30,664 nt of DNA from a virus. Lineage: Duplodnaviria > Heunggongvirae > Uroviricota > Caudoviricetes. The DNA is taken from positions 1 through 30,664 of the IMG/VR virus record IMGVR_UViG_2802429251_000007; one strand, given 5' to 3'. A program made the position numbers and the translations under genes. Below are positions 7,698-30,388 of this stretch, piece after piece; positions within the stretch are counted from its first letter, which is position 1, and each line of letters begins with the position of its first letter. The notes under the pieces were generated by a model. It saw nothing but the letters and a program-made list of their open reading frames with translations. It was not told the origin of the DNA and made no database searches.

Positions 7698-7754
7698 GCA
7701 TTACAGCAGCTCTTCTGTGAGGGGCTGCGATAATGTCACTAAGAGGAAAAATTC

Positions 7755-11964: not shown

Positions 11965-11978
11965 ATCGCAGGTAACAC

Positions 11979-13199: not shown

Positions 13200-13202
13200 A
13201 AA

Positions 13203-13709: not shown

Positions 13710-13720
13710 GGAACAGACGA

Positions 13721-14662: not shown

Positions 14663-14703
14663 CAGCCACATGGCCCCCTGGCGGGGCCATTAAGGATGAC
14701 CAG

Positions 14704-14925
14704 ATGGCAAAAAATAATGCAGTAATACACGTACATACCCCGTTTGTGCTCACGCTTCCCGACGGTTCACGGCGCGAGTTTGTTAAAGGCCGTCATGCAG
14801 TGGAGGAAGACGTTGCCACGCACTGGTTCACTCGTGCGCACGCGGAAGTATCCGTTGGCAAAGACACTGACGCGCGTAACGAGGTAAAAAATGCCAAAGA
14901 ATCAAAGTCTGCCAGCGGTAAGTGA
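14704..14925 (+). CDS. small structural-module protein (73 aa), unknown
   Basis: ORF with RBS, between capsid and neck genes. Confidence 0.35.
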
Positions 14926-15298
14926 TTTTCGCCGCGACTTCCCGCAGTTTGCTGACCCTGCCAAATATCCCGAAGCGCAAATCCAGTTTCGTCTGAATCT
15001 GGCCGATGAACTGCTGAGCGAAAACGTCACCGGAAAAAAGTTGTTTCCGTACTTTGCCGAGTTGTTCGTGGCTCACTACATGACGCTATGGGCGGCAGAT
15101 AGTCGGGCAATGCTGGTTGGCGGCCCGGGCGGTTCAACCAATGGTGTTCAATCCTCAAAGTCTGTTGACAAGGTAAGCGTCAGTTATGACACCAGCGCGA
15201 CGCTGAATCCTGATGCAGGTTTCTGGAATAACACCCGACATGGCGCTGAATTTTATCAGTTGATCACGATGTTCGGTGCAGGTGGTCGCCAGCTATGA
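14891..15298 (+). CDS. putative head-tail connector/adaptor protein
   Basis: Position; GAGGT RBS before ATG 14891. Confidence 0.4.
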
Positions 15299-15849
15299 GC
15301 TTCAAAAGCGGTGTAACAACGAGGGTGGATAACGCTCAGGCCATTCTGGATGCGCTCAGGTCGCTAACCAAAAAGGATGTGCTGGTCGGCATCCCTTCGG
15401 AAGACAGCGGGCGGGATGATGTTCCGTTTGGTAATGCGGGCATCGGTTACCTCAACGAATACGGCTCACCAGAGCAGAATATCCCGCCACGACCTCACCT
15501 GGTCCCCGGCGTTAAATCGGCAGAAGAGCAGACGGTGCCGCAGCTCAAAGCCGCGGCGCAGGCTGCACTTGATGGTAATGCTGCGGGAGCAGAAAGTGCA
15601 CTCAACCGTGCCGGAACGCTGGCCGCTAATGGCGTCAGGCGTTACATGACCATTACCGGCTTTACGCCGCTTGCTGACAGTACTGTTGAAGCCCGGGCTC
15701 GTCGGGGGCGCAAGGGGGCAACACTGGAACTTGCCCGGCGTGCTGCTGGCGAATCTCCGGGAACCGATCTGGCGAAACCATTAATTGACACCGGGCAATA
15801 TCGCAGAGCCATTACCCATGTTGTGAGGGATAAAGATGCCGACTCTTGA
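15295..15849 (+). CDS. putative neck/head-completion protein
   Basis: ATGA-type overlap with upstream gene; position. Confidence 0.35.
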
Positions 15850-16225
15850 TGTAACAGATGTGCTTTTTGACCCCGATTTTTGCGACTTCAATTTGTGGGT
15901 AACACGCCGAGTGCAAACGGTGGATGAGGACGGGATCGGCAGCGACAGTGAAGTTAAAAAGCAGTTTGCCGGAGTCGTAACTGTTGATCGCTCTCTGGAA
16001 AACCGCCGTATGCAGGCAGGGCAGGTAATCAGTGGTGCAATTCTGATTGTGACGACTGAGCGACTGACGCAGGGACAGACTGGCCGTGATTCCGATATCG
16101 TGACGTATCAGGGCCGTGATTACCGTGTGACCTTCGTCGACCCGTATACAGCTTATGGTGCCGGATTCGTTCAGGCGCATTGTGAGTTGCTGCCGTTTGA
16201 TGGGGGAATTCCGGTTGAGCAATAA
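15836..16225 (+). CDS. putative neck/tail-completion protein
   Basis: Overlapping start with upstream gene; position. Confidence 0.35.
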   Translation: MPTLDVTDVLFDPDFCDFNLWVTRRVQTVDEDGIGSDSEVKKQFAGVVTVDRSLENRRMQAGQVISGAILIVTTERLTQGQTGRDSDIVTYQGRDYRVTFVDPYTAYGAGFVQAHCELLPFDGGIPVEQ

Positions 16226-16763
16226 CACCAGCACAGAGCGCGGATGGCTGATACCAACCAGTGGCGATCCGGATTATGACGAAGCGCTCGACAGGCTGTT
16301 AAGCCAGTGGATGCGTAACGTTTCCGGTCTGTCTGCCGGGATGGTTCGTCCGCGCTGGCAGAAAGAGCAACCGCCACTGCTACCAGCTGAAACGAACTGG
16401 TGTGCGTTTGGGGTTATCGGATGGTCAGGTGATGACAGCCCGGCATTCACCAGACAGACCGATGATGGCTCTCAGCTCTGGCGGCATGAAACGATTGAGT
16501 GTATGGCTTCGTTTTATGGTCCGGCGGGGATGGTGTATGCGTCCCGGTTTCGTGACGGTATATCTGTACCGCAGAACAACGCAGCACTGAATGCGCTGGG
16601 GCTGTCTCTTGGCGATTACACAGGTCTGACTCCCTTCCCTGAACTTATTAATCAGCAATGGGTCCGCCGCTACGATATGACGGTGCGTCTGCGCCGGAAG
16701 GTTGTGCGCGAGTACGGTATTAAATCGCTGGTGGAAGCACCAGTCATCTTTTTCGGAGATTAA
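16200..16763 (+). CDS. putative tail terminator/neck protein
   Basis: ATG 16200 (MGEFRLSNN...); ORF-track start 16155 is an extension. Confidence 0.35.
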   Translation: MGEFRLSNNTSTERGWLIPTSGDPDYDEALDRLLSQWMRNVSGLSAGMVRPRWQKEQPPLLPAETNWCAFGVIGWSGDDSPAFTRQTDDGSQLWRHETIECMASFYGPAGMVYASRFRDGISVPQNNAALNALGLSLGDYTGLTPFPELINQQWVRRYDMTVRLRRKVVREYGIKSLVEAPVIFFGD

Positions 16764-16766
16764 GCT

Positions 16767-17912
16767 ATGGCACAGGGCTTGCCTGTATCAAACGTTGTTA
16801 ATGTTGATGTGATCATGTCGCCGCGTGCAGCATCAGGGCGAAATTTTGGTGCATTACTCATTCTCGGCCCGTCCACAATCATTCCGGTAAGTGAGCGCAT
16901 TCGCCGTTATTCTGCCGCGGAAGATATTGGAAAAGATTTTGGCGTGGAATCACCAGAATATAAGGCTGCGCAGGTGTTTTTCTCACAATCACCGAAACCT
17001 CAGGAGGTTTTTGTTGGTCGTTGGGTGAAAACGAAGGGAGACAGCGAACAGGCCACGCCTGAGACGCTGGAGCAGGCTGTGAATGCCATGCTCGATTATA
17101 CTTCATGGTATGGGCTGGGGATTGCAGACGATGAAGATATTCCGGATGCAGACTGGCTGAAAGTGGCTGCGGCGATCGAATCCTCTTCTGTAAGCCGTAT
17201 TCTGGCGATTACGACAAGCGATGAGAAATGCCTGCAGACTGCATCCAGCGATGATTTGGCATCAAAACTGAAAACCGCCGGATATTCACGCAGTTTTATT
17301 CAGTATTCATCGGGTAATAAATACGTTGCGTTATCTGCATTTGGCCGGGCATTCACGGTTAATTTCAATGGCAGTAATACCGCGATTACGCTCAAGTTTA
17401 AGCAGGAGCCGGGTGTCGGGTATGAAACACTGACAGTCAGCCAGGCATCGGCACTTGATGCAAAAAACTGCAATGTGTTCGTGTACTACCAGAATGATAC
17501 GGCTATCCTCCAGCAGGGAGTGATGGCTAACGGCGATTTCTTTGATGAACGCCACGGCCTGGACTGGTTACAGAATTATGTGCAGACCAACCTCTATAAC
17601 CTGCTTTATACCAGTACCACGAAAGTTCCCCAGACTGAAGCCGGTATTACCCGACTGTTATCAAATGTTGAAAAATCACTGGATCAGGCCGTTCAGAATG
17701 GACTGATTGCTCCGGGCGTATGGAACGGGGGCGACCTTGGTCAGTTGTCATCAGGTGACACACTGCCCAAAGGTTATTACGTATACGCTCAGCCGCTGGA
17801 TGAACAGGCTCAATCAGAACGTGAAGCCCGTAAGGCTCCGGTGATTCAGGCTGCAATAAAACTTGCAGGCGCGGTTCATTACGCTGACGTACAGATTAAC
17901 GTTGTTCGCTAA
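16767..17912 (+). CDS. putative tail sheath protein (DUF3383-like)
   Basis: 381 aa immediately before tube-like and chaperone genes; family recalled, not verified. Confidence 0.45.
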
Positions 17913-17922
17913 GGGGAAGTGA

Positions 17923-18363
17923 ATGTCTACCTATTCTTTTATGGATGTCACTGCGACGCTGACCGGGCCGACCGGTTCGATTGACCTCGGGTACGGTTCG
18001 GCAAGTTCTGAAGAGGGGATTGTGGTTGCGATGGGCGGTCCTAAAAACACCATGACCATCGGTGCTGATGGCGAAGTGATGCACAGTCTCCATGCAGATA
18101 AAAGCGGGACGATTACCGTTAACCTTCTGAAGACATCACCGACAAATAAAAAATTGTCGCTGGCGTATAACGCACAGAGCCAGTCTTCTGCCACATGGGG
18201 GAATAACGTTATCGTGATCCGCAACAAGGTCAGCGGCGACATCATCACGGCACGCAGTGTTGCGTTCCAGAAACAACCGGATAACGCCAACGCTAAAACC
18301 GGTAATACGATGCCGTGGGTATTTGACTGCGGCAAGATTGACCAGGTTCTCGGGGAGTTTTAA
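17923..18363 (+). CDS. putative tail tube protein (DUF3277-like)
   Basis: 146 aa between sheath-like and chaperone genes. Confidence 0.45.
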   Translation: MSTYSFMDVTATLTGPTGSIDLGYGSASSEEGIVVAMGGPKNTMTIGADGEVMHSLHADKSGTITVNLLKTSPTNKKLSLAYNAQSQSSATWGNNVIVIRNKVSGDIITARSVAFQKQPDNANAKTGNTMPWVFDCGKIDQVLGEF

Positions 18364-18366
18364 TAC

Positions 18367-18819
18367 ATGGAATTCGAAATCAAAGGCGTGAAATATCGCG
18401 TGGCAAAACTCAGCGTTTTTGACCAGCTGAAAGTGACCCGCAAACTTCTGCCGGTGCTGGCAGGAATGATGTCAGATTTCGGGAGCATTCGCTCCCGTTT
18501 GCCTGCTGATGGCAAAATCGACACCGTGAAATTCGAGCAGTTAAAACCGGTGTTTGAAACCATGCTCCCGCGTATCGCTGAGGAACTGTCTTCCCTGACC
18601 GAAGATGACACCGATGCGATTATTCATCCCTGTCTTGCGGTGGTGTCGCGGCGTCATATGGACGGATGGGTGCCGGTATTTACCCGGGGCGAACTGATGT
18701 TTGATGATATTGACCTGCTGGTCATGCTTCATCTGGTGGCGCGGGTGGTCGCCGATTCGCTGGGAAATTTTTTGCCTACACCCCTTACCAGCACGACGCA
18801 GAGCCTGCAACAGGGCTGA
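18367..18819 (+). CDS. tail assembly chaperone (G-like)
   Basis: 150 aa directly upstream of tape measure gene; carries slippery run near 3' end. Confidence 0.55.
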   Translation: MEFEIKGVKYRVAKLSVFDQLKVTRKLLPVLAGMMSDFGSIRSRLPADGKIDTVKFEQLKPVFETMLPRIAEELSSLTEDDTDAIIHPCLAVVSRRHMDGWVPVFTRGELMFDDIDLLVMLHLVARVVADSLGNFLPTPLTSTTQSLQQG

Positions 18820-19007
18820 CGTTTAACAGCCTGCCGGACGGGCTGTCCTACCTTCTCAATCCGGTTGACGCCGGGTTAATTCCTTATACAGCACTTAAAG
18901 ATGGCTCTGTCGATTTGTACGACATTGCTCTCTTGAATGACCATCTGGCGGTAAAAGCGGATAACCAGCGGCGCATTGAGAAATGGAGAGAGGATAATGA
19001 ACGCTGA
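18762..19007 (+). other. candidate programmed -1 frameshift site (GGGAAATTTTTTG) and 80-codon -1-frame extension (GT-like fusion)
   Basis: Overlapping XXXYYYZ heptamers at 18762-18774; -1 frame stays open from 18765 to TGA at 19005-19007. Confidence 0.5.
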
Positions 19008-20985
19008 AACTATTAAAGATTTCCTCGTCTCGCTTGGCTTCAGTGTGGATGATGCAGGAGCGAAAAAGTTCGGTTCTGTCCTCGCCGGTACAACGGCAAA
19101 TGTCATCAAAATGGGGCTGGCCGTTGAAGGAGCCGCGCTGTCCGTGGTGGCCTTCACGGCTAAGATCGCCTCCGGTCTGGATAATCTTTACTGGGCGTCA
19201 CAGCGCACCGGCGCGACAGTCCAGGGAATTCAGTCTATTGGCTATGCGGTTTCGCAGGTTGGCGGCAGCGTGGACGCTGCGCGATCTTCTCTGGAAAACC
19301 TCTCCCGGTTTATTCGTAATAATCCCGGGGCGGAGGGATTTCTGAATCGCCTGGGCGTACAGACCCGTGATGCCAGCGGTAACATGCGTGACATGGCCGC
19401 TATCTTTACGGGCGTTGGACAGAAACTCAGCAGCATGCCGTATTACCGGGCTAACCAGTATGCGCAGATGCTGGGCATTGACGAAAATACCCTTATGGCG
19501 ATGCGCCGGGGTGTGGGTGGCTTCTCCGGGCAGTACAGCGCAATGGCGAAAGCTATCGGCTTCAATGCTGACGAGGCGGCCAGAAGCTCCAACAAATTTA
19601 TGACCTCCTTGCGTGAGTTTAGCGCGATGGCAGGCATGGCCCGTGACAAAATCGGCTCTAATCTTGCGGGTGGGCTTGCAGGTTCGCTGGACACCCTGCG
19701 CCGCCATATCCTGGACAACTTCCCTCGTATCGAGCAGACCCTGACGAAAGCCATAAAAGGCATTCTGGCGCTCGGGGATATTATCGGGCGGCTGTTCTTC
19801 AGACTGATTGAGGGGACATCAGGCCTTATCACCTGGTGGCAATCGCTGGATAAGCAAACGCGGGAGTTGATCTCGCTGTTTGGCGCACTGACGATTGCGC
19901 TGCGCATTCTGAACAGTACGTTCTGGATGTCGCCGGTTGGCCTCATTACCGCGCTGGCGGCGGGGATTGCCCTCCTGTGGGAGGACTATCAGACCTGGAA
20001 GGAAGGCGGCGACAGCCTGATTGACTGGGGCAAGTGGAAACCGGAGGTCGATGCCGCGCTGAAGATGGTTCGTGACCTTAAAACGACCGTTAACGATCTG
20101 GCGAAAGCGCTGGCGAAACTACTCAATATTGACCCCAAATCATGGTCCCTGAAGTGGGATTTCAGCAACTTCATCGACCAGATGGGCGAATTCAGCAAAA
20201 TGCTGAACATGATCGCCGACCTGCTCAACGCTATCAAAGATGGACGCTGGGCTGATGCCGTCAGCATCGGCAAACAGATACTTAATCAGGGCAGCGAAAA
20301 TCCGTCAGCGATGCCGATGGTTACAGACAGCGCTAACAGTACTGCCGACTGGATTAAAGAGCACTGGGGATTCGATCCCCGCAGTGTGGGCCGGACGGTA
20401 CGCGGCTGGTTTGGTGATGATGAGCCGGAACAACATGCACAGGCTACGAAACGAGGAGAACGGAATAACAATCCGGGAAACCTTAATTTTGCTGGTCAGG
20501 CGGGGGCTTCTCTTGAACACCCGGGCGGGCGATTTGCCAGATTTGAAACTGCCTTTGATGGATTACGGGCTCTTGCTCGTCAGTTAATGTTGTACGCCGG
20601 GCGAGGAATAAACAGTGTGGAAAAAATTATCTCTACCTGGGCACCTGCCTCTGATAATAACAACACAACTGCGTATATCAGGGCTGTATCGCAACGACTG
20701 GGAGTGGATCCCCGGGCTGCCCTGAATATGAGCGATCCGAAAACCATGTCAGCATTGATGAGCAGCATTATCCAGCATGAAAATGGAAGAAATATCTATT
20801 CTCGAGAGCTGATTAATAAGGCTGCCGTGGCGGGAATTAGTGGCAAAATGACAGAGGTTAACCAGCAAAATACCTACCACATTTACGGTGGCGGAGATCC
20901 GCACGCTGTCGGTAATGAGGTTGCACGTCGGCAACAGTCTGCAAATGCTCAGGTTATGCGAAGTAATCAGGTGAGGGTGGGTTAG
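18997..20985 (+). CDS. tail tape measure protein
   Basis: 662 aa; hydrophobic TM-like central segments; follows chaperone; ATG 18997 with GGAGAGAGG upstream (ORF-track start 18976 is TTG). Confidence 0.8.
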   Translation: MNAETIKDFLVSLGFSVDDAGAKKFGSVLAGTTANVIKMGLAVEGAALSVVAFTAKIASGLDNLYWASQRTGATVQGIQSIGYAVSQVGGSVDAARSSLENLSRFIRNNPGAEGFLNRLGVQTRDASGNMRDMAAIFTGVGQKLSSMPYYRANQYAQMLGIDENTLMAMRRGVGGFSGQYSAMAKAIGFNADEAARSSNKFMTSLREFSAMAGMARDKIGSNLAGGLAGSLDTLRRHILDNFPRIEQTLTKAIKGILALGDIIGRLFFRLIEGTSGLITWWQSLDKQTRELISLFGALTIALRILNSTFWMSPVGLITALAAGIALLWEDYQTWKEGGDSLIDWGKWKPEVDAALKMVRDLKTTVNDLAKALAKLLNIDPKSWSLKWDFSNFIDQMGEFSKMLNMIADLLNAIKDGRWADAVSIGKQILNQGSENPSAMPMVTDSANSTADWIKEHWGFDPRSVGRTVRGWFGDDEPEQHAQATKRGERNNNPGNLNFAGQAGASLEHPGGRFARFETAFDGLRALARQLMLYAGRGINSVEKIISTWAPASDNNNTTAYIRAVSQRLGVDPRAALNMSDPKTMSALMSSIIQHENGRNIYSRELINKAAVAGISGKMTEVNQQNTYHIYGGGDPHAVGNEVARRQQSANAQVMRSNQVRVG

Positions 20986-21572
20986 TGGATATTCTCTCTA
21001 CACTTTTTCATCAGCAGAGCAGAAAAATAGGAATGATTGTTCCCAGTGTTGTTATTTCAGAGAAGCATACAGATATGCTTGAAATAACCGAGCATCCGGT
21101 AGAGGTTGGGGCTGCTGTCGCTGATCATGCCTATAAAAAACCGTCAGAAGTGGTGATGGAGGTTGGTTTCGCCGGTGGCGGCACATTGCTGGATTTTGCC
21201 AGTAACCTGACGGCTACCAGCCTGCTCGGCCTGAGTCCTCAGCAGACGTATCAGGAGCTACTGGATTTGCAGGAAAGCCGTATCCCCTTCGATGTGGTAA
21301 CCGGTAAACGGCTGTACAGCAACATGTTGATCCGGGCGCTGGAAGTGACGACGGACAAGACAACCGAAAATGTCCTGTCCGCCGTCCTTACCCTGAGGGA
21401 GGTCCTTATCTCCCGGACACAGCAGATTACCGTCGCGGATAAAACCAACATGAAGGAAGGGGCCAGCACGTCGGCGGTACAGAATAGCGGCAACAAAACC
21501 ACAAAGCCTCCAGATACTTCACTGCTGAAAAGCATTACGGGTAACGTGGCGTCATTACTGGGGGGCGGCTAA
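20985..21572 (+). CDS. tail/baseplate assembly protein, unknown family
   Basis: GTG start overlapping tape measure stop; position. Confidence 0.35.
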   Translation: MDILSTLFHQQSRKIGMIVPSVVISEKHTDMLEITEHPVEVGAAVADHAYKKPSEVVMEVGFAGGGTLLDFASNLTATSLLGLSPQQTYQELLDLQESRIPFDVVTGKRLYSNMLIRALEVTTDKTTENVLSAVLTLREVLISRTQQITVADKTNMKEGASTSAVQNSGNKTTKPPDTSLLKSITGNVASLLGGG

Positions 21573-21874
21573 TGACAATTCAGGAAATTCCGCTGACAGC
21601 GGACAATCAGCAGTTCAGCATCGTCCTGGGTGGTGTCACCTGGCGGATTAGCATCATATGGCGCGATCTGTACTGGATTATGGACCTGCAGAACGACAGA
21701 GGGGAGCCGGTAATCTCCGGTATTCCTCTCGTCACTGGTGCTGACCTGCTGGCGCAGTACGCCTGTATGGGGCTTGGTTTTAAGCTGGTGGTGGTCTGTG
21801 ATGACAACACACAGGATTACCCCACAAAAACTGACCTGGGCGGTCGCAGCCATTTACTGGTATCAACGGAGTAA
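21572..21874 (+). CDS. small tail/baseplate protein, unknown family
   Basis: ATGA overlap with upstream gene. Confidence 0.3.
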   Translation: MTIQEIPLTADNQQFSIVLGGVTWRISIIWRDLYWIMDLQNDRGEPVISGIPLVTGADLLAQYACMGLGFKLVVVCDDNTQDYPTKTDLGGRSHLLVSTE

Positions 21875-21876
21875 GC

Positions 21877-22941
21877 ATGTCACAGAACTGGATGAGACAT
21901 TTCGAGCTGCAGCTTGTGGACGGGAACGGTCAGGGAATTGAGCTAAGTGATTTCAAAGTCACCTTTACGATCGACTGGTTCAACATCAGCAGCGCGTCCC
22001 GGGTAGGGACTATCAAAATTTATAACCTCTCGGCAGATACTGTGAACCGAATCACTGGGAAGGAATTTTCGAAAGTGCGGCTGATTGCCGGTTACGACGG
22101 TATCGCGCCGGAGGTGGCGGCAAGCGACGTCGGGACCGTGCGCGAAGTCGACGCGGCGGACGTGGGCCAGACAGATGGCCGCAACTACGGACTGATTTTC
22201 AGCGGTGAAATTCGCTACTCGGTCACAGGAAAAGACAGTCCGGTTGATACCTACGTCCTGATTCAGGCAGCAGATACTGATCTGGCATTTGCCACCAGTA
22301 TAACCTCACAGACGCTGGCTGCCGGTTACACGGTCGCAGATGTGAACCGTGCGCTGATGAAAGACTTTGAGGCCAAAGGCGCGACCGAAGGACTGACGCC
22401 TGAAATGCCTGCTACCGTATACCCTCGAGGGCGGGTGCTGTTCGGCATGACACGGCATCTTATGGATAACGTGGCCGGACAATGTGGCGCAACATGGCAA
22501 TTTGTGGACGGTCAGCGCCAGATGGTGGCGAATAACGAGTATGTTCACGACGCGATTGTGCTCAACAGCGCCACCGGGCTTATCGGCATGCCGCAGCAGA
22601 CTATCGGCAACGGTGTAAACGTCCGCGCTCTTATTAATCCGAACATCCGGGTTAACGGGCTTATTCAGCTGGATCAGGCTTCCGTGTACCGCACCGCGCT
22701 GTCGAACAATGATATTGCGATGGCTGGTGGGCAGATCACCGACCAGAACACGGACGGAAATATCACGCTAAGCGGCACCACATCGCAGCCTGCCAGCATC
22801 GCAACGGATGGCGTTTATATTGTGCGCGGGATTATGTACACTGGCGACACAAGGGGCCAGGCGTGGTACATGGATATGATGTGCTTTGCTCGAGGTGCTA
22901 GTGATATTCCTAGCCAGTCAGCGATGAATCGAGGTGCATAA
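21877..22941 (+). CDS. putative baseplate hub protein
   Basis: 354 aa; position between tape measure and spike-like gene; GGAG RBS. Confidence 0.4.
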   Translation: MSQNWMRHFELQLVDGNGQGIELSDFKVTFTIDWFNISSASRVGTIKIYNLSADTVNRITGKEFSKVRLIAGYDGIAPEVAASDVGTVREVDAADVGQTDGRNYGLIFSGEIRYSVTGKDSPVDTYVLIQAADTDLAFATSITSQTLAAGYTVADVNRALMKDFEAKGATEGLTPEMPATVYPRGRVLFGMTRHLMDNVAGQCGATWQFVDGQRQMVANNEYVHDAIVLNSATGLIGMPQQTIGNGVNVRALINPNIRVNGLIQLDQASVYRTALSNNDIAMAGGQITDQNTDGNITLSGTTSQPASIATDGVYIVRGIMYTGDTRGQAWYMDMMCFARGASDIPSQSAMNRGA

Positions 22942-22943
22942 TA

Positions 22944-23669
22944 GTGAGCAGGCTTGCGATAACCACAATCGTATTTTCTCTTTTTTTAACTTCATGTAGT
23001 TGGGATCCTAATGGTGCTAAAGCGCAGGGAAAATGGCTATCCCAAAAAAATGAAGAAAAACAAGCGTACGATAAGCAAGTTGAGGAGAGCCAGAAAAGCA
23101 GGCTTCAAATACAGCGCGAAGAAAAGTCTCAATTTGAAGTTTCACATCCAGAGGTTATCGTTGCTGGTGTTGGGAACGAGCTTAAAAGTAAGGGTGCAGA
23201 ATCTTTGCGAGATGCGTACAACAGCATTCCATTCGTAACTCGTTATCCGGGAACCACGGACCCTAACAAAGTTTATACCTATGTCGGTGACTACAAATTA
23301 AATTTGCAACTGGTTAACACATCTGTGCTTTCTCAGATCTCAGATTGCAAACGCATTTCAGCGTATGCCGATGTTGATATTAATCGTACTTGCTTCAATC
23401 AAATTGGAAATGATTTGAGTTTGTTTGCATCTGTAATTAAAGACAAAAATATTACTGGAATTGCAAAAAAAGCAGCTCTACGAGATTCAACTTACGGAAC
23501 TAAAATTGATTTTGGTCATGCTGCGCGTTTAGCAAAAATGCATGCCACTTTATGCCAAAAGCAGGGCGGTAAAGGATTTGTCAAAATGTCGACTGTAGCT
23601 GTGCCTTGCGGCTCTTCAGGCGATGTAATTAACTATCGAAGCGCCGGTAAGATGGGGCTTATAAACTGA
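22944..23669 (+). CDS. lipoprotein (241 aa), moron-like accessory gene
   Basis: Signal peptide plus lipobox LFLTSC, +2 Ser; GTG start with GAGGTG upstream; visibly AT-rich versus flanking genes; own terminator downstream. Confidence 0.6.
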   Translation: MSRLAITTIVFSLFLTSCSWDPNGAKAQGKWLSQKNEEKQAYDKQVEESQKSRLQIQREEKSQFEVSHPEVIVAGVGNELKSKGAESLRDAYNSIPFVTRYPGTTDPNKVYTYVGDYKLNLQLVNTSVLSQISDCKRISAYADVDINRTCFNQIGNDLSLFASVIKDKNITGIAKKAALRDSTYGTKIDFGHAARLAKMHATLCQKQGGKGFVKMSTVAVPCGSSGDVINYRSAGKMGLIN

Positions 23670-23691
23670 AAAGATCAAATTAGTCACATAA

Positions 23692-23716
23692 AACCCGCCG
23701 GATGGCGGGTTTTTTG
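23692..23716 (+). terminator. intrinsic terminator after lipoprotein gene
   Basis: CCCGCC-GGAT-GGCGGG hairpin followed by TTTTTT. Confidence 0.7.
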
Positions 23717-23734
23717 CTTTCTGGAGCCTACTAA

Positions 23735-24487
23735 ATGGCAGTATCTGACCAGACCCGCAGCGGCGACCTTGCCGAAACATTTAAATCTGAACGGGAAACA
23801 ACAAAGAACCAGATCCGTGTCGCCTTGCCAGGCATTGTTCAGTCATTCGCTCCTGATGCGGTGACGGCGGTTGTACAGCCTGCTATCCGTTACGTTGAAA
23901 TTGATAACGACGGCAACCGCATTACCAAAAATTACCCATTGCTGGTGGATGTGCCAGTGGTATTCCCGCGTGGCGGAGGCTGTACGCTAACGTTTCCAGT
24001 TAAAGCCGGTGATGAATGCCTGGTGATTTTTGCCGATCGTTGTATTGATTTCTGGTGGCAGAGTGGCGGGATACAGGAGCCGGTCGATGACCGGGTGCAT
24101 GATTTATCGGATGCTTTCTGTATCGTCGGGCCGCAGTCTCAGGCGCAGAAAATAAGCGGAATAAGCACCAGTGGCGCGCAGCTGCGTAGTGACGACGGCA
24201 GCACCTATTTTGAGCTTAATCCTGATACCAGGAAAATTAAAATTGTCGCTCCGGGTGGTCTTGATGTGGTTGCCCCTCTGGCTGATTTTTCTGAGAAAGT
24301 AACCATTCATGGCCTGTTAACCTGGATGGGGGGCATGGTGGGGTCTGTTGTTTCTGGTGTGGCTTCAAAAATCACTGGTGCTGTTGAGTTTTTGGGTAGC
24401 GTGAAGGCTAACGGCAAGCTAATCGATGATACGCACACTCATGGTGGTGTTCAGCGCGGTGGAAGCAATACCGACGGAGTAAACTGA
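23735..24487 (+). CDS. putative baseplate spike/assembly protein V-like
   Basis: 250 aa, position; GGAG RBS. Confidence 0.45.
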   Translation: MAVSDQTRSGDLAETFKSERETTKNQIRVALPGIVQSFAPDAVTAVVQPAIRYVEIDNDGNRITKNYPLLVDVPVVFPRGGGCTLTFPVKAGDECLVIFADRCIDFWWQSGGIQEPVDDRVHDLSDAFCIVGPQSQAQKISGISTSGAQLRSDDGSTYFELNPDTRKIKIVAPGGLDVVAPLADFSEKVTIHGLLTWMGGMVGSVVSGVASKITGAVEFLGSVKANGKLIDDTHTHGGVQRGGSNTDGVN

Positions 24488-24840
24488 TGCGATACAGACG
24501 TGAAGACGCCGATGGCGATTACACCTTTGGCAGCGGTGATGATACCTGGCTGATTAACTCACCGGAGGCCGTGGCGCAGGCGGTAAAAACGCAATTCGAA
24601 TTGTGGTATGGGCAATGGTTTCTAGACACCACCGAAGGGACTCCGTGGATCCAGTCCGTACTCGGTAAGCAGAAGCCGGAAACCTACAATCTGGCGATCC
24701 GTAAGCGCATCCTCGAAACGCGGGGCGTTAAATCAATCCTCTCTTTCAATACTACAGTGGATACCACGACCCGACGTGTCATGTTTTCCGCTGAAATCGA
24801 CACTCTTTATGGAATAACGACTGTTACATCGGAGGCGTAA
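24487..24840 (+). CDS. putative baseplate wedge protein (gpW/gp25-like)
   Basis: 117 aa; ATGA overlap; position between spike-like and J-like genes. Confidence 0.4.
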   Translation: MRYRREDADGDYTFGSGDDTWLINSPEAVAQAVKTQFELWYGQWFLDTTEGTPWIQSVLGKQKPETYNLAIRKRILETRGVKSILSFNTTVDTTTRRVMFSAEIDTLYGITTVTSEA

Positions 24841-26039
24841 TGGCTCTGAACCTTGATTCTCTCGGTTTATCTGCAAAGGTAACCGCGGAGGGGATCAGTG
24901 CGCCTGATTATCAGACGATACTCAGCACCCTGATTGGCTATTTTCAGCAGATTTATGGCAGTGATGCCTACCTCGAACCGGACAGCAAAGACGGCCAGAT
25001 GGTGGCTCTGATGGCGCTGGCGATTCATGATGCCAATAATATGGCGATAACTGTCTACAACTGTTTTTCACCGGCAACCGGCTATGGGGCTGCACTGACC
25101 AGTAACGTGAAAATAAATGGTATTTCACGTAAAGGCGCAACGAATTCTACGGTTGATTTGCTTCTTACAGGAACTGCCGGAACAACCATCATTAATGGCA
25201 GCGTGAAAGACAGTAATAATGTGATATGGCGTTTGCCTGCTTCAGTGGTGGTCGGCGTGGATGGTACAGTGATGGCGACCGCAACATGTTCCGTCAGTGG
25301 TGCAGTGGCGGCGCTGGCTGGAACTATCACTGAAATTAATACGCCAACCCGTGGCTGGGTTTCGGTAACTAATCCTGCTGCGGCTACTGTGGGCACTCCG
25401 GCAGAAACTGACGCTGAGTTACGTATCCGCCAGTCGCAAAGTGTTGCGTTGCCATCAATAACCCCATTTGAAGCACTGGATGGTGCTGTTTCTAATGTTA
25501 CCGGTGTAACCCGCCACAAACTCTATGAAAACGATACTGGTTCGGAGGACGGTAACGGGTTACCGCCACACTCTGTTGCTGTAATTGTGGATGGCGGTGA
25601 TGTGACGGATATTGCTCAGGCTATCAGAGGGAATAAAGGCCAGGGGACAGCCACTCACGGTACAACATCCGTTACGGTTCCGGATAAATACGGCAATCCC
25701 CATGTAATCAAATTCTCGCGTTCCAGTGATGTACCTGTTTATGCCCGGATTAAATTAAAAGTTTTTACGGGTTATACCTCACAGATAGGGCAGCAGATCC
25801 AGCAGGCTATTTCCGGCTATATCAATAGTCTGATGATTGGTGATTCGGTCCTTTTAAGTCGCATTTACTCACCGGCGAATCTTGGCGTGGTGAGTGGCGG
25901 GAATGCACGCTATTACGATATTCAGGAACTGACGATTGGGAAATCCCCGGGGGCTTTGTCGTCATCAAACATTGATATCAGATACAACGAATCTGCGTCC
26001 TGTACCCCGGAAAATATCGTTATAACGGTGGAGTCATGA
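24840..26039 (+). CDS. baseplate J-like protein
   Basis: 399 aa; position and size consistent with Baseplate_J family. Confidence 0.6.
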   Translation: MALNLDSLGLSAKVTAEGISAPDYQTILSTLIGYFQQIYGSDAYLEPDSKDGQMVALMALAIHDANNMAITVYNCFSPATGYGAALTSNVKINGISRKGATNSTVDLLLTGTAGTTIINGSVKDSNNVIWRLPASVVVGVDGTVMATATCSVSGAVAALAGTITEINTPTRGWVSVTNPAAATVGTPAETDAELRIRQSQSVALPSITPFEALDGAVSNVTGVTRHKLYENDTGSEDGNGLPPHSVAVIVDGGDVTDIAQAIRGNKGQGTATHGTTSVTVPDKYGNPHVIKFSRSSDVPVYARIKLKVFTGYTSQIGQQIQQAISGYINSLMIGDSVLLSRIYSPANLGVVSGGNARYYDIQELTIGKSPGALSSSNIDIRYNESASCTPENIVITVES

Positions 26040-26716
26040 GCAAATACACCGAACTAATCACGAACTACCACGCCACCAAACCTAAATTTCTTGCGCATGT
26101 TGATCTGATGACCCGGCCACTTATTGATGTTGCGGCTGCCACCAGAGGGCTGATTACTGCATTTGATATTGACTCTGCGGTTGGTGTGCAACTTGACATT
26201 CTTGGATTGTGGATCGGACGTAGCCGTGTTGTCAGCCAGCCTATCTCAGGTGTCTATTTCAGCTGGGATACCGACGGGCTTGGATATGATCAGGGGGTAT
26301 GGCGGGGACCATACGATCCTGATTCAGGATACATGTATCTCAGCGATGAAACTTATCGTGTCATTCTTAAAGCGAAGATTGCGATTAATAACTGGGACGG
26401 ACGGAATGATTCGCTTCCGGCAATTCTTGACGCTGCAACAGCAGGATCCGGGCTGCGAATGCAGATAGTCGATAACCAGGACATGACGATATCGGTCTGG
26501 GTCTTTCCTGATACTGATATTTCAGATGTATCGCGTGAGTTAATTGCGGCAATTAAACAGGGGTATCTCACAGTTAAAGCCGCCGGGGTTTGGGCGGGTG
26601 ACATTGAAACACCTTCGGTGAAAACCCCATCGGAAGGCTCAAAATTTTTTGGTTTTGATATGGATAACGAATTTATCAGTGGTTTTGATGTAGGGGCATG
26701 GGGAGTATTACTCTGA
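26036..26716 (+). CDS. baseplate/tail protein I-like (DUF2313, YmfQ-like)
   Basis: 226 aa; position between J-like gene and tail fiber. Confidence 0.5.
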
Positions 26717-27792
26717 TGGCAAAAAATGACTTTAAAGCATTCGCAACGGGTAAAAATGCCAATGTTATGCCGCAGGAGGAATGGGAAGCGTTGCCTGCGC
26801 TTTTATCCGGATTTACAGCAGGGAAAGCATCCAGTGCGCAAGTCAATAAGGTTATTCGGCAGGCCAGCTTTATTGCATCTGCAATAGCACAATATACAGC
26901 AAATGAAAGTGGACTGGATGTACAGGACGATGGCGATCAGGCCGGCTTTATCGCAAAAATGTCGTCTGCATTAGATAAGAACTATCAGAGAATTAATGCC
27001 ATACTTACCGCACTTGCTAATCTTTCAGCATCCGAAAACAAATTACCGTATTTTACCAATCAAGATACCGCTAATTTGGCTGACCTGACACAGGTTGGGC
27101 GAGATATTTTGGCAAAAAGCTCTGTTGCTGATGTCCTTAAATATCTTGGTCTGGAAGATAATTCGACCTTTCCTGTAGGTGCCCCGATCCCGTGGCCATC
27201 AGATACAGTTCCATCTGGTTATGCTCTGATGCAGGGACAGACTTTTGACAAGTCTGCATACCCGAAACTTGCAGCCGCTTATCCGTCAGGCGTGATCCCT
27301 GATATGCGTGGCTGGACGATTAAGGGCAAGCCCGCCAGTGGTCGTGCCGTATTGTCTCAGGAACAGGACGGCATTAAATCGCACACCCACAGCGCCAGCG
27401 TATCCAGTACGGATTTGGGTACGAAAACCACATCGTCGTTTGATTACGGGACGAAAACAACCTCACTATTTGACTATGGGACCAAAACTACCAGTAACGC
27501 CGGGAGTCACACGCATTCAATACCAACATCAGATGGTGCAAACCAGGGGGGGAAAATTCCACTGACATCTGGGCGTCTGGCAACTCAATATACATCAGCA
27601 ACAACAGGTTCCTCTGGCTCACATTCTCATACTGTAGGTATTGGTTCTCATCAGCACACTGTCGGTATTGGTGCACACACGCACTCCGTTGCGATTGGTT
27701 CACATGGACACACCATCACCGTTAACGCTGCTGGTAACGCGGAAAACACCGTCAAAAACATCGCATTTAACTATATTGTGAGGCTCGCATAA
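26716..27792 (+). CDS. side tail fiber protein
   Basis: ATG 26716 overlaps upstream stop (TGATG); C-terminal HxH repeats [34 protein letters not shown]; followed by tail fiber assembly gene. Confidence 0.75.
27418..27501 (+). repeat. 30-nt tandem repeats inside tail fiber gene (GTKTTS-x-FDY, about 2.8 units)
   Basis: Read directly from sequence. Confidence 0.7.
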
Positions 27793-28370
27793 TGGAATTC
27801 AGAATGAGTGAACAACCACAGACCATAAAAATTTATAATCTGCTGGCCGGAACTAATGAATTTATTGGTGAAGGTGATGCATACATTCCACCTCATACAG
27901 GTCTGCCAGCAAACAGTACCGATATTGCACCGCCAGATATTCCGGCTGGCTTCGTGGCTGTTTTCAACACTGATGAGGCATCGTGGCATCTCGTTGAAGA
28001 CCATCGGGGTAAAACCGTCTATGACGTGGCTTCCGGCGACGCGTTATTTATTTCTGAACTTGGCCCATTACCGGAAAATGTCACCTGGTTATCCCCGGAA
28101 GGGGAGTTTCAGAAGTGGAACGGTACATCTTGGGTGAAAGATGCAGAAGCAGAAAAACTGTTTCGGAGCCAGGAGGCGGAAGAAACAAAAAACAGCCTGA
28201 TGCAGGTAGCTAGCGAGCATATTGCGCCACTTCAGGATGCTGTAGATTTGGATATTGCGACGGAAGAAGAGGCATCGTTACTGGCTGCATGGAAGACATA
28301 TCGGGTATTGTTGAATCGTGTTGATACAACAGTAGCAGCGGATATTGAGTGGCCAGTCGCCCCACAATAA
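27792..28370 (+). CDS. tail fiber assembly protein (Tfa)
   Basis: C-terminal [18 protein letters not shown]...WP..P typical of Tfa chaperones; directly after tail fiber. Confidence 0.8.
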
Positions 28371-28379
28371 AAAGAAAAA

Positions 28380-28406
28380 GCCATCGATAGAAATATCGAT
28401 GGCTTT
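28380..28406. terminator. bidirectional hairpin between convergent Tfa and acetyltransferase genes
   Basis: GCCATCGATA-GAAA-TATCGATGGC with T-rich flanks on both strands. Confidence 0.6.
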
Positions 28407-28413
28407 ATGTGCT

Positions 28414-28986
28414 CTATTTATACAATACAACACCGCTCTTTTTAGTTATATATGTGCAGTTCGATGGTATATCTTTATTTATAAAAGACATTGCGCCTAT
28501 TTTTACATTATCCCCAATTTTACGTGATAATCCAATGATGCAACAATTAGCTCCGATATCAACGTTACTACCAATTTTTACTCTTGAACCAGGTATGTCA
28601 CCATCTATCTGTCCAATCGTAGTATTCTGTCGTAACACCAGATTTTCACCAGCATCAACAGCAAAATGAACAACAATTCCAGCGTGATGGGGAATTGTTA
28701 GCCCTTTTCCAATTTTTGCTCCCAGTCCAATCTCGCAACCAAATTTGTTAATTATTTTATTGTTTAACTTTTTAGCAGCTTTCTTATGTAATTTATTACC
28801 ATTAATATACATTTCGTTAGCCAGCCGCCACCAGAAAAGGAAATTCCTGTTACGTTGTTTTTTTTCTCTGAAAAGCCTCCAGATATCCATATACTCCCGC
28901 CGTATTACTTCAGATTTCCAAAAGCTTTTTAAATCAGAAGAATTCCCAAGTAAAACAAAATGAATTGCTATTAAGTAAGATAACAC
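28414..28986 (-). CDS. hexapeptide-repeat acetyltransferase (CysE/WcaB-like)
   Basis: IGLGAKIGKGLTIPHHAGIVV...IGQIDGD...KIGSNVDIGANCCIIG hexapeptide repeats; GTG start with AAGGAG 6 nt upstream; visibly AT-rich. Confidence 0.7.
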   Translation of the reverse strand: MLSYLIAIHFVLLGNSSDLKSFWKSEVIRREYMDIWRLFREKKQRNRNFLFWWRLANEMYINGNKLHKKAAKKLNNKIINKFGCEIGLGAKIGKGLTIPHHAGIVVHFAVDAGENLVLRQNTTIGQIDGDIPGSRVKIGSNVDIGANCCIIGLSRKIGDNVKIGAMSFINKDIPSNCTYITKKSGVVLYK

Positions 28987-29138
28987 GATAATCTCCTTAA
29001 TTATTACTTTCGACCATATTAGCCCTAAATTTAATGAAGTGTAAAATCTGGTTGTTTGTTATTTAAAAGCTAAGTTCGTGATACTTTACGGATGCTGAGG
29101 AGAGCATTATACGATATTTTTCTGCACACTCATAGTAA

Positions 29139-29267
29139 CAAACACCAGAACAATGGGCGCAGGCCGGGCGATTAATTGCATCAGGCGTTCCTCGCCAGAA
29201 GGTGGCTATTATCTATGATGTTGGTGTGTCAACTTTGTATAAGAGGTTTCCGGTCGGAGATAAATGA
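29139..29267 (+). pseudogene. 3' remnant of pin/gin/hin-family DNA invertase gene (C-terminal HTH only)
   Basis: QTPEQWAQAGRLIASGVPRQKVAIIYDVGVSTLYKRFPVGDK matches invertase C-terminal HTH; stop codon directly upstream in frame, no catalytic domain. Confidence 0.65.
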
Positions 29268-29562
29268 AACCGTAGCACGTCGTATGCAAGAACGTGCCAC
29301 GGCTGGCTGATGGACGTTCGATAGCGCGAGTTTGAATGAAAATCAGCCGGCGATGATTTTACATAATTGCTACGGAATTATTCAATACAGGAATTGCTTG
29401 TGTATGCATGGATTGACCTGAAATATTCCCGAAAATTTCTCTAAAAAACTCGAAAAAAATGGTAACTAATTGAATGCATTGGTATGCAATGCTATGTGTT
29501 CAGGATTGAAAAATGCGCGCTTTTTTATTTAATATATTGATTTTAAATGATTTTATTTCTCG

Positions 29563-29595
29563 TTGACGAATACAGGAATCGTGTTCGGTCTCTTT
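29563..29595 (+). ncRNA. sdsR: 3' end/terminator of sdsR (ryeB)-like small RNA (remnant or att-reconstituted)
   Basis: GACGAATACAGGAATCGTGTTCGGTCTCTTTTT matches remembered SdsR 3' hairpin (one G/A difference); upstream sequence does not match the SdsR body. Confidence 0.45.
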
Positions 29596-29731
29596 TTATC
29601 TGTTAAAAGCCAGAAGCATTCCCTTCGCTGACTTTATAGTCAACCATAACACACACTCTACTGTCTGAGTCCAGCGTTTTTTAACATTCTTGTTAAGATT
29701 ATGTGATCTTTAGCGCGGGAGGAAAATATTG

Positions 29732-30388
29732 ATGAAACAGCCTGCGCCCGTTTATCAGAGAGTTGCGGGTCATCAATGGCGACATATCTGGCTTTCAGGC
29801 GATATACACGGTTGTCTTGAGCAGTTGCGCCGCAAATTATGGCATTGTCGTTTTGATCCGTGGCGAGATTTACTTATCTCAGTGGGAGACGTTATCGATC
29901 GTGGGCCGCAAAGTTTACGTTGCCTGCAGTTACTGGAACAACATTGGGTTCGTGCGGTAAGAGGCAATCATGAACAGATGGCGATGGATGCGCTGGCATC
30001 CCAGCAGATGTCATTGTGGTTGATGAATGGCGGCGACTGGTTTATTGCGCTGGCAGATAATCAACAGAAACAAGCGAAAACGGCGCTGGAAAAATGTCAG
30101 TATTTGCCCTTTATTCTTGAAGTACACAGTCGCACCGGCAAACATGTTATTGCCCATGCCGATTATCCGGATGATGTTTATGAATGGCAAAAGGACGTCG
30201 ATTTGCATCAGGTCTTGTGGAGCCGCTCACGATTACGTGAAGGCCAAAAAGGGCAGGGAATTACAGGTGCTGATCATTTCTGGTTTGGTCATACACCGTT
30301 GCGCCATCGCGTGGATATTGGCAACCTGCATTATATTGATACCGGTGCTGTCTTTGGGGGAGAACTGACTCTTGTGCAATTGCAATAA
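29732..30388 (+). CDS. pphA: serine/threonine protein phosphatase 1 (PPP family)
   Basis: GDIHG, GDVIDRG, GNHE metallophosphatase motifs; sequence recalled as E. coli PrpA; GGGAGG upstream of ATG 29732. Confidence 0.8.
   Translation: MKQPAPVYQRVAGHQWRHIWLSGDIHGCLEQLRRKLWHCRFDPWRDLLISVGDVIDRGPQSLRCLQLLEQHWVRAVRGNHEQMAMDALASQQMSLWLMNGGDWFIALADNQQKQAKTALEKCQYLPFILEVHSRTGKHVIAHADYPDDVYEWQKDVDLHQVLWSRSRLREGQKGQGITGADHFWFGHTPLRHRVDIGNLHYIDTGAVFGGELTLVQLQ

What the first reader, a model, noticed from the sequence alone, without database searches (positions are those of the whole stretch)
29380..29600. Prophage-host junction appears to lie inside the sdsR/ryeA small-RNA locus next to pphA
About 135 bp upstream of pphA the sequence GACGAATACAGGAATCGTGTTCGGTCTCTTTTT matches the 3' stem-loop terminator of the sRNA SdsR (RyeB) as I remember it, with one G/A difference. 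The sequence upstream of it is AT-rich and unrelated to the SdsR body, and continues into prophage DNA. This suggests the element is integrated within the 3' end of sdsR, with this ~33-bp segment being the att core. A partial second copy of the core (AATACAGGAAT at 29384-29394) lies 185 bp upstream and could be the scar of a previous or tandem integration. The sdsR/ryeA locus has been reported as an insertion hot spot in enterobacteria, to the best of my recollection.
Basis: partly seen in the sequence, partly recalled or inferred. Interest (0 to 1): 0.6.

Follow-up and report, generated by a model that had tools for sequence, protein, structure and literature searches.

The report
Prophage right end in sdsR terminator

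Summary
Confirmed. Window 29567-30664 is Escherichia core DNA: the last 31 nt of sdsR, the ryeA promoter and 5' end on the minus strand, pphA and yebW. Everything to the left is prophage. Identity with an uninterrupted K-12 locus starts at exactly C29567.

The left end is not in the window, because the source contig starts inside the prophage. Related lysogens supply it. E. coli RM8082 has the same phage arm next to pphA. Its far end carries a lambda-type integrase and excisionase, then a full-length sdsR rebuilt from a phage copy of the core. A phage genome record (PP818812.1) has exactly the attP predicted from those two junctions.

Of 5426 complete E. coli genomes, 5191 have the empty site, 235 are split at the core, and 227 carry this arm. 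In IMG/VR, integrase homologues (40-100% identical) lie 75-170 bp from the same core in many arm types.

The site is already published for Salmonella (Balbontin 2008).

The parts
1..29566 (.). Prophage DNA. It runs from the early/lysis region through the head, tail and tail-fibre genes to the P arm. The left part, including int and attL, lies off the contig.
   Evidence: About 96% identical in blocks to the 42-kb RM8082 prophage that sits between pphA and yebY. The window is 100% identical to GCA_002966045.1 contig PTRX01000003.1 from position 79 over the 10,792 bases of that contig that were fetched.
29363..29566 (+). P arm of the phage attachment site (the phage side of attR), 29% G+C.
   Evidence: Aligns with 12 other arms of this type, including the attP of phage record PP818812.1. 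Similarity to unrelated lambdoid phages stops at 29362. G+C. The last ~75 bp are a divergent allele, at most 82% identical to any of 228 E. coli lysogens.
29417..29457 (+). Candidate arm-type integrase binding repeats: CCTGAAAT at 29417-29424, CCCGAAAAT at 29428-29436 and CTCGAAAAA at 29449-29457.
   Evidence: [CT]CGAA[AT] repeats cluster at -150 to -125 from the core in 24 arm types, and at +50 to +80 in the opposite arm. This is the layout of lambda attP. Binding is inferred, not shown.
29383..29396 (+). It matches the left half-site plus the loop of the core at 13 of the 15 core positions (CGAATACAGGAATCG).
   Evidence: 1 of 5000 shuffles. Intact in 10 of 13 distinct arms of this type. Degenerate in L031, L123 and pPE4 (CAACTCATAGATTG). 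Absent from 23 other arm types.
29567..29597 (+). Last 31 nt of sdsR (terminator hairpin and U tract). This is the att core as seen at attR.
   Evidence: Identical to K-12 from 29567. Matches the 3' hairpin of Rfam SdsR_RyeB. The hairpin folds at -7.8 kcal/mol here, against -15.8 in intact sdsR, because the phage-side stem lacks one C.
29572..29582 (.). Interval that must contain the strand exchange (ACAGGAATCGT). The predicted 7-bp overlap is the hairpin loop AGGAATC (29574-29580), flanked by the inverted half-sites CGAATAC and GTGTTCG.
   Evidence: Comparing attB, attP, attL and attR puts the phage/host marker switch between position 29571 (T/A) and 29583 (G/A). The 7-nt loop comes from the fold. 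The cleavage positions are inferred.
29567..29675 (-). ryeA (sraC) promoter and first ~70 nt of RyeA. The start site is at about 29635-29641. The rest of RyeA is replaced by phage DNA.
   Evidence: Start site placed two ways: +141 relative to sdsR +1, from Choi et al. 2019 (PMC6610125), and 270 nt upstream of the RyeA terminator in K-12. Rfam SraC_RyeA aligns well only over its first ~38 positions.
29732..30388 (+). pphA (protein serine/threonine phosphatase 1), a host gene.
   Evidence: NCBIfam NF008516 scores 438 bits against a cut-off of 326. RefSeq annotation of matching genomes agrees.
29256..29362 (.). Double-hairpin element at the border between the tail-fibre module and the int-att module. 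On the minus strand it is a candidate tI/sib-like terminator.
   Evidence: Shared at 76-83% identity with HK97, HK106, phi80 and HK633. In HK97 it lies about 300 bp from int, and in HK633 it overlaps the annotated attP feature. On the minus strand a 14-bp hairpin is followed by UUUCAUUUAU. Function is inferred.
29151..29267 (+). Remnant of a Pin/Gin-type DNA invertase gene. Only the C-terminal helix-turn-helix remains.
   Evidence: Pfam HTH_7, E = 1e-9. RefSeq marks the homologue as an incomplete recombinase.

Best explanation
Window 29363-29597 is attR, the right junction of a roughly 42-kb lambdoid prophage that inserted by site-specific recombination into the terminator hairpin of the host small-RNA gene sdsR (ryeB).

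The enzyme is a lambda-type tyrosine integrase with an arm-binding N-domain, helped by an excisionase. The two stem arms of the terminator (CGAATAC and GTATTCG) would serve as the inverted core binding sites. The 7-nt loop AGGAATC would be the overlap where strands are exchanged. The AT-rich 204 bp to the left is the phage P arm with its arm-type repeats.

The phage carries its own copy of the terminator, so sdsR is rebuilt intact at the other end (attL, next to yebY, int and xis). The end seen here keeps only the last 31 nt of sdsR. It also keeps the ryeA promoter with about 70 nt of RyeA, and pphA.

Expected consequences:
- RyeA loses the roughly 200 nt that are antisense to the rest of sdsR and its upstream region.
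- Convergent transcription from the ryeA promoter no longer runs into sdsR.
- pphA is cut off from the sdsR promoter that normally drives it by read-through.

Shown: the junction position, the empty site, attP, attL and attR in relatives, the integrase domains, and the repeat layout. Inferred: the exact cleavage points, integrase binding to the repeats, that this strain's own left end looks like its relatives', and the RNA-level effects. The RyeA/RyeB effects were measured only for phage W104 in Salmonella.
For: Junction: colinearity with K-12 and O157 starts at C29567, and upstream is unrelated to sdsR. Rfam finds only the terminator part.

Empty and occupied sites: 5191 of 5426 complete E. 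coli genomes have the uninterrupted locus. 235 are split, with the yebY-side piece ending at query position 423, which is the end of the core. 227-228 carry this P arm joined to pphA.

Both ends in a relative, RM8082:
- attR is ttGACGAAaACAGGAATCGTGTTCGGTCTCTTTTT.
- attL is the sdsR body followed by CGAATACAGGAATCGTaTTCGGTCTtTTTTT.
- int and xis lie next to yebY.
- sdsR at attL scores 118 bits, full length.

Free attP: PP818812.1 reads TTGACGAAAACAGGAATCGTATTCGGTCTTTTTTT between the tail-fibre genes and int, exactly as predicted from attL and attR.

Integrase: it has Pfam Arm-DNA-bind_1, Phage_int_M and Phage_integrase domains. The excisionase matches lambda Exc. The integrase is 41% identical to HK022 Int.

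Generality: in IMG/VR about 70 contigs show the sdsR body, the core and then phage DNA. In 76 of 81 integrase hits the gene ends 75-170 bp from the core. Arm repeats sit at lambda-like positions.

Literature: phage W104 attaches within the last 23 bp of ryeB and changes RyeA and RyeB levels (PMC7380047). pphA is transcribed by read-through from the sdsR promoter (PMC6610125).
Against: The window holds no integrase, excisionase or attL. The source contig starts inside the prophage, so integration at sdsR is shown for this strain at one junction only.

The ~75 bp of the arm nearest the core are a divergent allele (at most 82% identical to any complete E. coli genome). The left half-site reads GAATAC like the host, not GAAAAC as in relatives. 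This phage's own attP is therefore unknown.

The prophage carries an IS1 and a truncated invertase gene, so it may no longer be able to excise.

No RNA data exist for this strain.
Confidence: 0.9

Rival explanations
1. The upstream 11-mer (29384-29394) is a scar left in this chromosome by an earlier or tandem integration at sdsR.
For: The 11-mer is unlikely by chance (1 of 5000 shuffles). It matches the left half-site plus loop and then diverges, as a recombination joint would. Tandem occupancy of this site does occur elsewhere: IMG/VR locus L022 has two cores 8.3 kb apart.
Against: The motif lies at the same place, 186 bp from the core, in all 13 distinct arms of this type from different genomes. 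The homologous, degenerate position is inside the attP arm of a phage genome record, between the tail-fibre genes and int. So it travels with the phage. No host or second-phage sequence lies between it and the core, and the intervening DNA holds the arm-type repeats.
Confidence: 0.05
2. The upstream 11-mer is an old relic carried in the phage arm, for example the joint of a past integrase-mediated or module-swapping recombination. It has no present role.
For: It lies only 21 bp inside the border where similarity to other lambdoid phages ends (29362). It varies more than the neighbouring arm repeats: it is degenerate in L009, L123 and L031. It is absent from 23 other arm types that use the same core.
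Against: There is no direct trace of the supposed event. The flanks show no extended similarity to the core flanks in relatives. The 15-mer D1 repeat is seen only in this window's divergent allele, and the arm is AT-rich. Across the whole survey of 24 arm types, one such hit is not very surprising: my estimate is about 0.3 expected at 2 mismatches or fewer in 13 positions.
Confidence: 0.45
3. The junction is not an attachment site. A prophage remnant came to lie next to a truncated sdsR through deletion or illegitimate recombination.
For: Only one end is visible. The prophage shows decay: an IS1 at about 3730-4427 and an invertase remnant at 29151-29267.
Against: The breakpoint falls in the same hairpin, to the base, as in 227 other genomes. 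It matches the attP, attL and attR set of relatives. The arm with its repeats is intact.
Confidence: 0.04
4. The locus is an uninterrupted but divergent sdsR/ryeA locus.
For: Weak Rfam matches span 29502-29601.
Against: Both scores are below the gathering score and only the hairpin aligns. There is no yebY upstream, only tail-fibre genes, an acetyltransferase gene and an invertase remnant.
Confidence: 0.01

Closest known systems
Phage W104 attachment site in ryeB/ryeA of Salmonella Typhimurium DT104 (Balbontin et al. 2008, J Bacteriol 190:4075; known to me through PMC7380047, PMC3333887 and PMC3603311)
   Same: The same host target, the last ~23-31 nt of ryeB (sdsR), internal to ryeA. The same consequence for gene layout: ryeB is kept, and ryeA is cut off from its 5' part. 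A Salmonella element with the same core and a 74%-identical integrase is in the phage collection (OK490361.1).
   Different: The host here is Escherichia/Shigella. The arm sequences and integrase allele differ (74% identity to that Salmonella element).
Lambda/HK022 Int-Xis attP/attB recombination
   Same: An integrase of about 357 aa with arm-binding, central and catalytic domains, plus a lambda-like Xis. int points toward attP. Arm repeats lie at about -150 to -125 and +50 to +80. The core is two inverted half-sites around 7 bp.
   Different: Only 41% identity to HK022 Int. The target is an sRNA terminator, not the gal-bio intergenic site. The arm repeats share CCGAA with the core half-sites, whereas in lambda the arm and core sites differ (the lambda comparison is my recollection). 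The P' arm also carries an extra inverted core-like copy.
Integration into the 3' ends of tRNA and tmRNA genes
   Same: The phage carries a copy of the 3' end of a structured RNA gene and restores the gene at attL. A hairpin supplies the inverted repeat for the core (argued for RNA genes in general in PMC3603311).
   Different: The target is an Hfq-dependent sRNA with a fully overlapping antisense partner, so rebuilding one gene necessarily truncates the other.

Membership tests
attR junction of a lambda-type tyrosine-integrase prophage | The sequence switches from host to phage at a point inside a short block shared by attP and attB. | tested here: met
   The switch is at 29566/29567. The shared block is about 32 bp with 3 mismatches between the pPE4 attP and the K-12 attB.
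attR junction of a lambda-type tyrosine-integrase prophage | The same core is repeated at the other prophage end (attL) in this genome. | not testable with these tools
   The contig starts inside the prophage. The feature is met in relatives RM8082, S. flexneri SFBU1023 and E. coli ECMA0423.
attR junction of a lambda-type tyrosine-integrase prophage | A tyrosine integrase, and usually an excisionase, lies next to attL. | not testable with these tools
   Not in the window. In RM8082, int (Arm-DNA-bind_1, Phage_int_M and Phage_integrase domains) and xis (Exc) lie next to yebY. In IMG/VR, int ends 75-170 bp from the core in 76 of 81 hits.
attR junction of a lambda-type tyrosine-integrase prophage | An unoccupied attB exists in related genomes. 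| tested here: met
   5191 of 5426 complete E. coli genomes have the uninterrupted locus.
attR junction of a lambda-type tyrosine-integrase prophage | A contiguous attP (P arm, core, P' arm) exists in a phage genome. | tested here: met
   Found in PP818812.1 (L009 2560-2900) and OK490361.1. These are related phages, not this one.
attR junction of a lambda-type tyrosine-integrase prophage | Arm-type repeats in both arms, and inverted half-sites around a 6-8 bp overlap in the core. | tested here: met
   Repeat positions. A 7-nt loop between the arms CGAATAC and GTGTTCG. Protein binding was not tested.
SdsR/RyeB sRNA gene (Rfam RF00111) | A full-length match at or above the gathering score of 38 bits. 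| tested here: not met
   30.3 bits, with only the 3' hairpin aligned. K-12 scores 114 bits and the RM8082 attL scores 118 bits. The window holds a 31-nt fragment, not the gene.
SraC/RyeA sRNA gene (Rfam RF00101) | A full-length match at or above the gathering score of 37 bits. | tested here: not met
   32.2 bits, with only the first ~38 model positions aligning well. The promoter and about 70 nt of the 5' end are kept, and the body is phage DNA.
Phage W104-type insertion in ryeB (Balbontin 2008) | Attachment within the last ~23 bp of ryeB, internal to ryeA. | tested here: met
   The exchange interval 29572-29582 lies within the last 26 nt of sdsR. The definition is taken from PMC7380047.
Phage W104-type insertion in ryeB (Balbontin 2008) | Lower RyeA and higher RyeB in the lysogen. 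| not testable with these tools
   This needs a northern blot or RNA-seq.

The most novel reading that the evidence does not exclude
In Escherichia this insertion would do more than disturb RyeA and SdsR as reported for Salmonella. It would disconnect pphA from the sdsR promoter, which normally supplies most of its transcription by read-through (PMC6610125). pphA would then sit behind a weakened terminator hairpin (-7.8 against -15.8 kcal/mol) and be fed only by phage-arm transcription.

At the same time the sigma-70 ryeA promoter would fire into the phage arm. That would give a chimeric RNA of about 370 nt ending at the tI/sib-like hairpin near 29270, with only about 31 nt still antisense to SdsR. 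At attL, any int transcription would run antisense through sdsR.

About 4% of complete E. coli genomes in RefSeq would then carry a phage-rewired SdsR/RyeA/PphA stress circuit.

A second, separate oddity is that the arm repeats share CCGAA with the core half-sites, and that many arm types keep an inverted core-like copy in the P' arm. That could mean an unusual way for the integrase to read its sites.
Probability: 0.35. Interest if true: 0.45.

Novelty: already known. Interest (0 to 1): 0.2.

Why it matters
This is mainly useful for annotation. A sub-threshold Rfam hit to only the 3' hairpin of an sRNA, right at the edge of phage genes, marks an attachment site and should not be called an sRNA gene.

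The survey also shows how heavily this one hairpin is used. At least a dozen phage arm types target it, and their integrases are down to 40% identical to the RM8082 integrase. About 4% of complete E. coli genomes are occupied, almost all by one arm family.

In these lysogens the SdsR/RyeA pair, described as an RNA toxin-antitoxin pair, and pphA, which depends on read-through from the sdsR promoter, are physically uncoupled. That gives a ready natural experiment for people who study the circuit. It does not open a new question.

Tried and rejected
- Reading Balbontin et al. 2008 directly: not held under its PMC id or DOI. Its content is taken from three papers that cite it.
- Reaching this strain's attL: the only long contig carrying the window's first gene starts 78 nt before the window. 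The other contigs are short and stop at the immunity region.
- Exact search for the window-specific junction (30-mer) in IMG/VR: no hit.
- Integrase scan of species-representative genomes: only 2 loci, both attL at sdsR. Too few to list genera.
- Looking for the 11-mer, or any core half-site copy, in the P arms of 23 other arm types: nothing at 2 mismatches or fewer.
- Terminator scan between the ryeA promoter and the acetyltransferase gene: the simple scan found none on the minus strand. Folding showed a good hairpin with a U-rich tail at about 29262-29300 that the scan's loop limit had missed. I therefore dropped the idea that the ryeA promoter drives the acetyltransferase gene.
- The 15-mer repeat D1 (29354 and 29538) as support for a duplicated att: relatives show no such similarity, so I treat it as AT-rich coincidence.

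Full report
**What is in the sequence**

The 33-mer GACGAATACAGGAATCGTGTTCGGTCTCTTTTT lies at 29565-29597. The pphA start codon is at 29732, 135 bp after the last T. I fixed that start by mapping the RefSeq K-12 annotation onto the window.

The whole right end of the window matched every one of 5426 complete E. coli genomes at 97-99% identity. In most genomes the match began at window position 29555 or 29567 and covered pphA and yebW. In a four-way alignment with K-12, O157:H7 and a lysogen, colinearity with the two uninterrupted loci begins at C29567. The core itself is identical to both. To the left, the window has nothing in common with the sdsR body.

Rfam agrees. At the gathering threshold there is no sdsR or ryeA hit. 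With a permissive threshold, SdsR_RyeB scores 30.3 bits (cut-off 38) and SraC_RyeA scores 32.2 (cut-off 37), and only the terminator hairpin aligns. The same search gives 114 and 175 bits on K-12.

K-12 also reads CGTGTTCGG. The A belongs to the Rfam family consensus and to the phage-borne copies of the core described below. The one real difference at the edge is a missing C (GAC-GAAT instead of GACCGAAT). It weakens the hairpin from -15.8 to -7.8 kcal/mol.

**What lies to the left**

Going left from the junction:
- 29363-29566 is 29% G+C.
- 29256-29362 is a double-hairpin element also found in HK97, HK106, phi80 and HK633. In HK97 it lies about 300 bp from int, and in HK633 it overlaps the annotated attP feature.
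- 29151-29267 is the helix-turn-helix tail of a DNA invertase gene.
- 28414-28986 (minus strand) is a hexapeptide acetyltransferase gene.
- Further left come tail-fibre and baseplate genes.

So the DNA to the left is phage.

**Where the window comes from, and the missing end**

Over the 10,792 bases of the contig that were fetched, the window is 100% identical to contig PTRX01000003.1 of assembly GCA_002966045.1, from position 79. That contig begins inside the prophage. The left end of this particular prophage cannot be reached with the tools, so I used relatives.

**Both ends in relatives**

E. coli RM8082 carries a 42-kb prophage about 96% identical to the window in long blocks. It has the same arm next to pphA. 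At its other end, next to yebY, are an excisionase and a tyrosine integrase.

The two junctions read as follows:
- attL: ...CCATTTCCCTGGACCGAATACAGGAATCGTaTTCGGTCTtTTTTTaattg
- attR: ...ttgttGACGAAaACAGGAATCGTGTTCGGTCTCTTTTTATCTG

Compared with K-12 attB, the host-specific and phage-specific bases swap sides between GAA[T/A]AC and CGT[G/A]TT. The exchange must therefore lie within ACAGGAATCGT, window 29572-29582.

The attP predicted from these junctions is TTGACGAAAACAGGAATCGTATTCGGTCTTTTTTTAATTG. It is present, base for base, in phage record PP818812.1, between the tail-fibre genes and an integrase 98.9% identical to that of RM8082.

sdsR at the RM8082 attL is full length and scores 118 bits. 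The species-representative genomes of S. flexneri (SFBU1023) and E. coli (ECMA0423) also show the sdsR body, the core, the phage arm and int.

**Mechanism**

The integrase has the lambda Int arm-binding domain, the central domain and the catalytic domain. The excisionase is lambda-like. The integrase is 41% identical to HK022 Int.

The core is a near-perfect inverted repeat, CGAATAC / GTATTCG, around the 7-nt loop AGGAATC. That is the classic layout of two half-sites around a 7-bp overlap, and the loop sits inside the interval defined by the markers.

Across 24 to 28 arm sequence types collected from IMG/VR, CCGAA-containing repeats cluster at -150 to -125 in the P arm and at +50 to +80 in the P' arm. 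This is the lambda attP pattern. In the window they are at 29417-29457. Binding and cleavage positions are inferences.

**How common it is**

With an 801-bp K-12 probe centred on the core, 5191 of 5426 genomes have the uninterrupted locus. The other 235 are split, and the yebY-side piece ends at the end of the core. Of these, 227-228 carry the window's type of P arm joined to pphA.

About 70 of them show the sdsR body, the core and then phage DNA. At least a dozen P' arm types carry the arm repeats. Integrase homologues 40-100% identical to the RM8082 enzyme end 75-170 bp from the core in 76 of 81 hits.

**The second copy**

AATACAGGAAT at 29384-29394 is real. Only 1 of 5000 dinucleotide shuffles of the arm shared 11 bases or more with the core.

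It sits at the same place in all 13 distinct arms of this type. It is exact in 10 of them and degenerate in 3. One of the 3 is the attP arm of the phage record, which reads CAACTCATAGATTG. It is absent from the 23 other arm types.

So it is part of the phage arm and not a scar made in this chromosome. It lies 21 bp inside the border where similarity to other lambdoid phages ends. An old recombination relic is therefore my best guess. Chance and a minor functional role are not excluded.

**Consequences (inferred)**

Two independent calculations place the RyeA start at about 29635-29641 on the minus strand. The promoter and about 70 nt of RyeA stay with pphA. Only about 31 nt of that stretch is still antisense to SdsR.

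Transcripts from this promoter would run into the phage arm. They would probably stop at the 14-bp hairpin with a U-rich tail near 29262-29300.

In E. coli, pphA is transcribed mainly by read-through from the sdsR promoter (PMC6610125). A 42-kb insertion separates the two. For Salmonella phage W104, lower ryeA and higher ryeB expression has been reported (PMC7380047).

**Comparison with what is known**

The site was described by Balbontin et al. 2008. [quoted passage not shown] It is used as an integration-site label, for example 'Cfr111.52.RyeB', in PMC10111431. I found no paper that describes the E. coli arm family specifically, but it is the same kind of element at the same target.

**Verdict**

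The feature is a textbook attachment junction at a published hot spot. The 'scar' idea is not supported as stated. Interest is low.

Noticed in passing
window 3405-4991: A P1/Gifsy-type immunity leader (Rfam c4-a1b1, isrK and C4 at 3405-3606) is followed by an ~813-bp insertion that RM8082 lacks. The insertion is an IS1 (window ~3730-4427). After it comes an ORF6N antirepressor-like gene (4437-4991). The IS1 probably uncouples the antirepressor from its RNA control.
   Followed up: partly
window 1166-1490: A hok/sok toxin-antitoxin module lies inside the prophage. Rfam sok scores 108.6 bits, and the Hok reading frame is at 1278-1490.
   Followed up: no
window 5355-5508: Two phage-borne tRNA genes sit side by side: tRNA-Thr(UGU) and tRNA-Gly(UCC).
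   Followed up: no
window 28414-28986 (minus strand): An AT-rich hexapeptide-repeat acetyltransferase gene (EpsC/CysE/WcaB-like, below all curated cut-offs) lies between the tail-fibre assembly gene and the invertase remnant. It looks like a cargo gene, possibly for modifying a surface polysaccharide. RM8082 has one at the same place.
   Followed up: partly
window 28135-28333: A strong Rfam IS009 match (189 bits) lies wholly inside the tail-fibre assembly gene (27792-28370). This 'sRNA' family may simply be modelling conserved phage coding sequence.
   Followed up: no
window 29256-29362: A double-hairpin element is shared with HK97, HK106, phi80 and HK633. In HK97 it lies about 300 bp from int, and in HK633 it overlaps the annotated attP feature. 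It also gives a weak Rfam CssrB hit. It marks the border between the tail-fibre module and interchangeable int-att modules. On the minus strand it looks like a tI/sib-type terminator for int.
   Followed up: partly
L009 (PP818812.1, 'Actinobacillus phage vB_Apl-pPE4'): This record's int-attP region is 98% identical to E. coli prophages, and its attP core is the enterobacterial sdsR terminator. The Actinobacillus host label looks doubtful.
   Followed up: no
P' arms of IMG/VR loci, e.g. L004 44300-44400, L090, L034, L012: After three direct CCGAAAWT repeats, many arm types keep an inverted copy (ATATTCGGTCTTTT) that resembles the right half of the core. In L090 it is identical to that half over 16 nt. 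The arm repeats and the core half-sites (GACCGAATAC) share CCGAA.
   Followed up: partly
L067 (IMGVR_UViG_2728369554_000022): In this attL the core is fused directly to the core-like copy in the P' arm, which removes the three P' arm repeats. The deletion probably locks the prophage in place.
   Followed up: no
L022 (IMGVR_UViG_2667528172_000001) 556-575 and 8867-8886: Two copies of the sdsR core lie 8.3 kb apart. The second is preceded by (GGAAAC)x7 and followed by another phage-type arm. This looks like tandem elements, or a small satellite next to a prophage, at the same hot spot.
   Followed up: no
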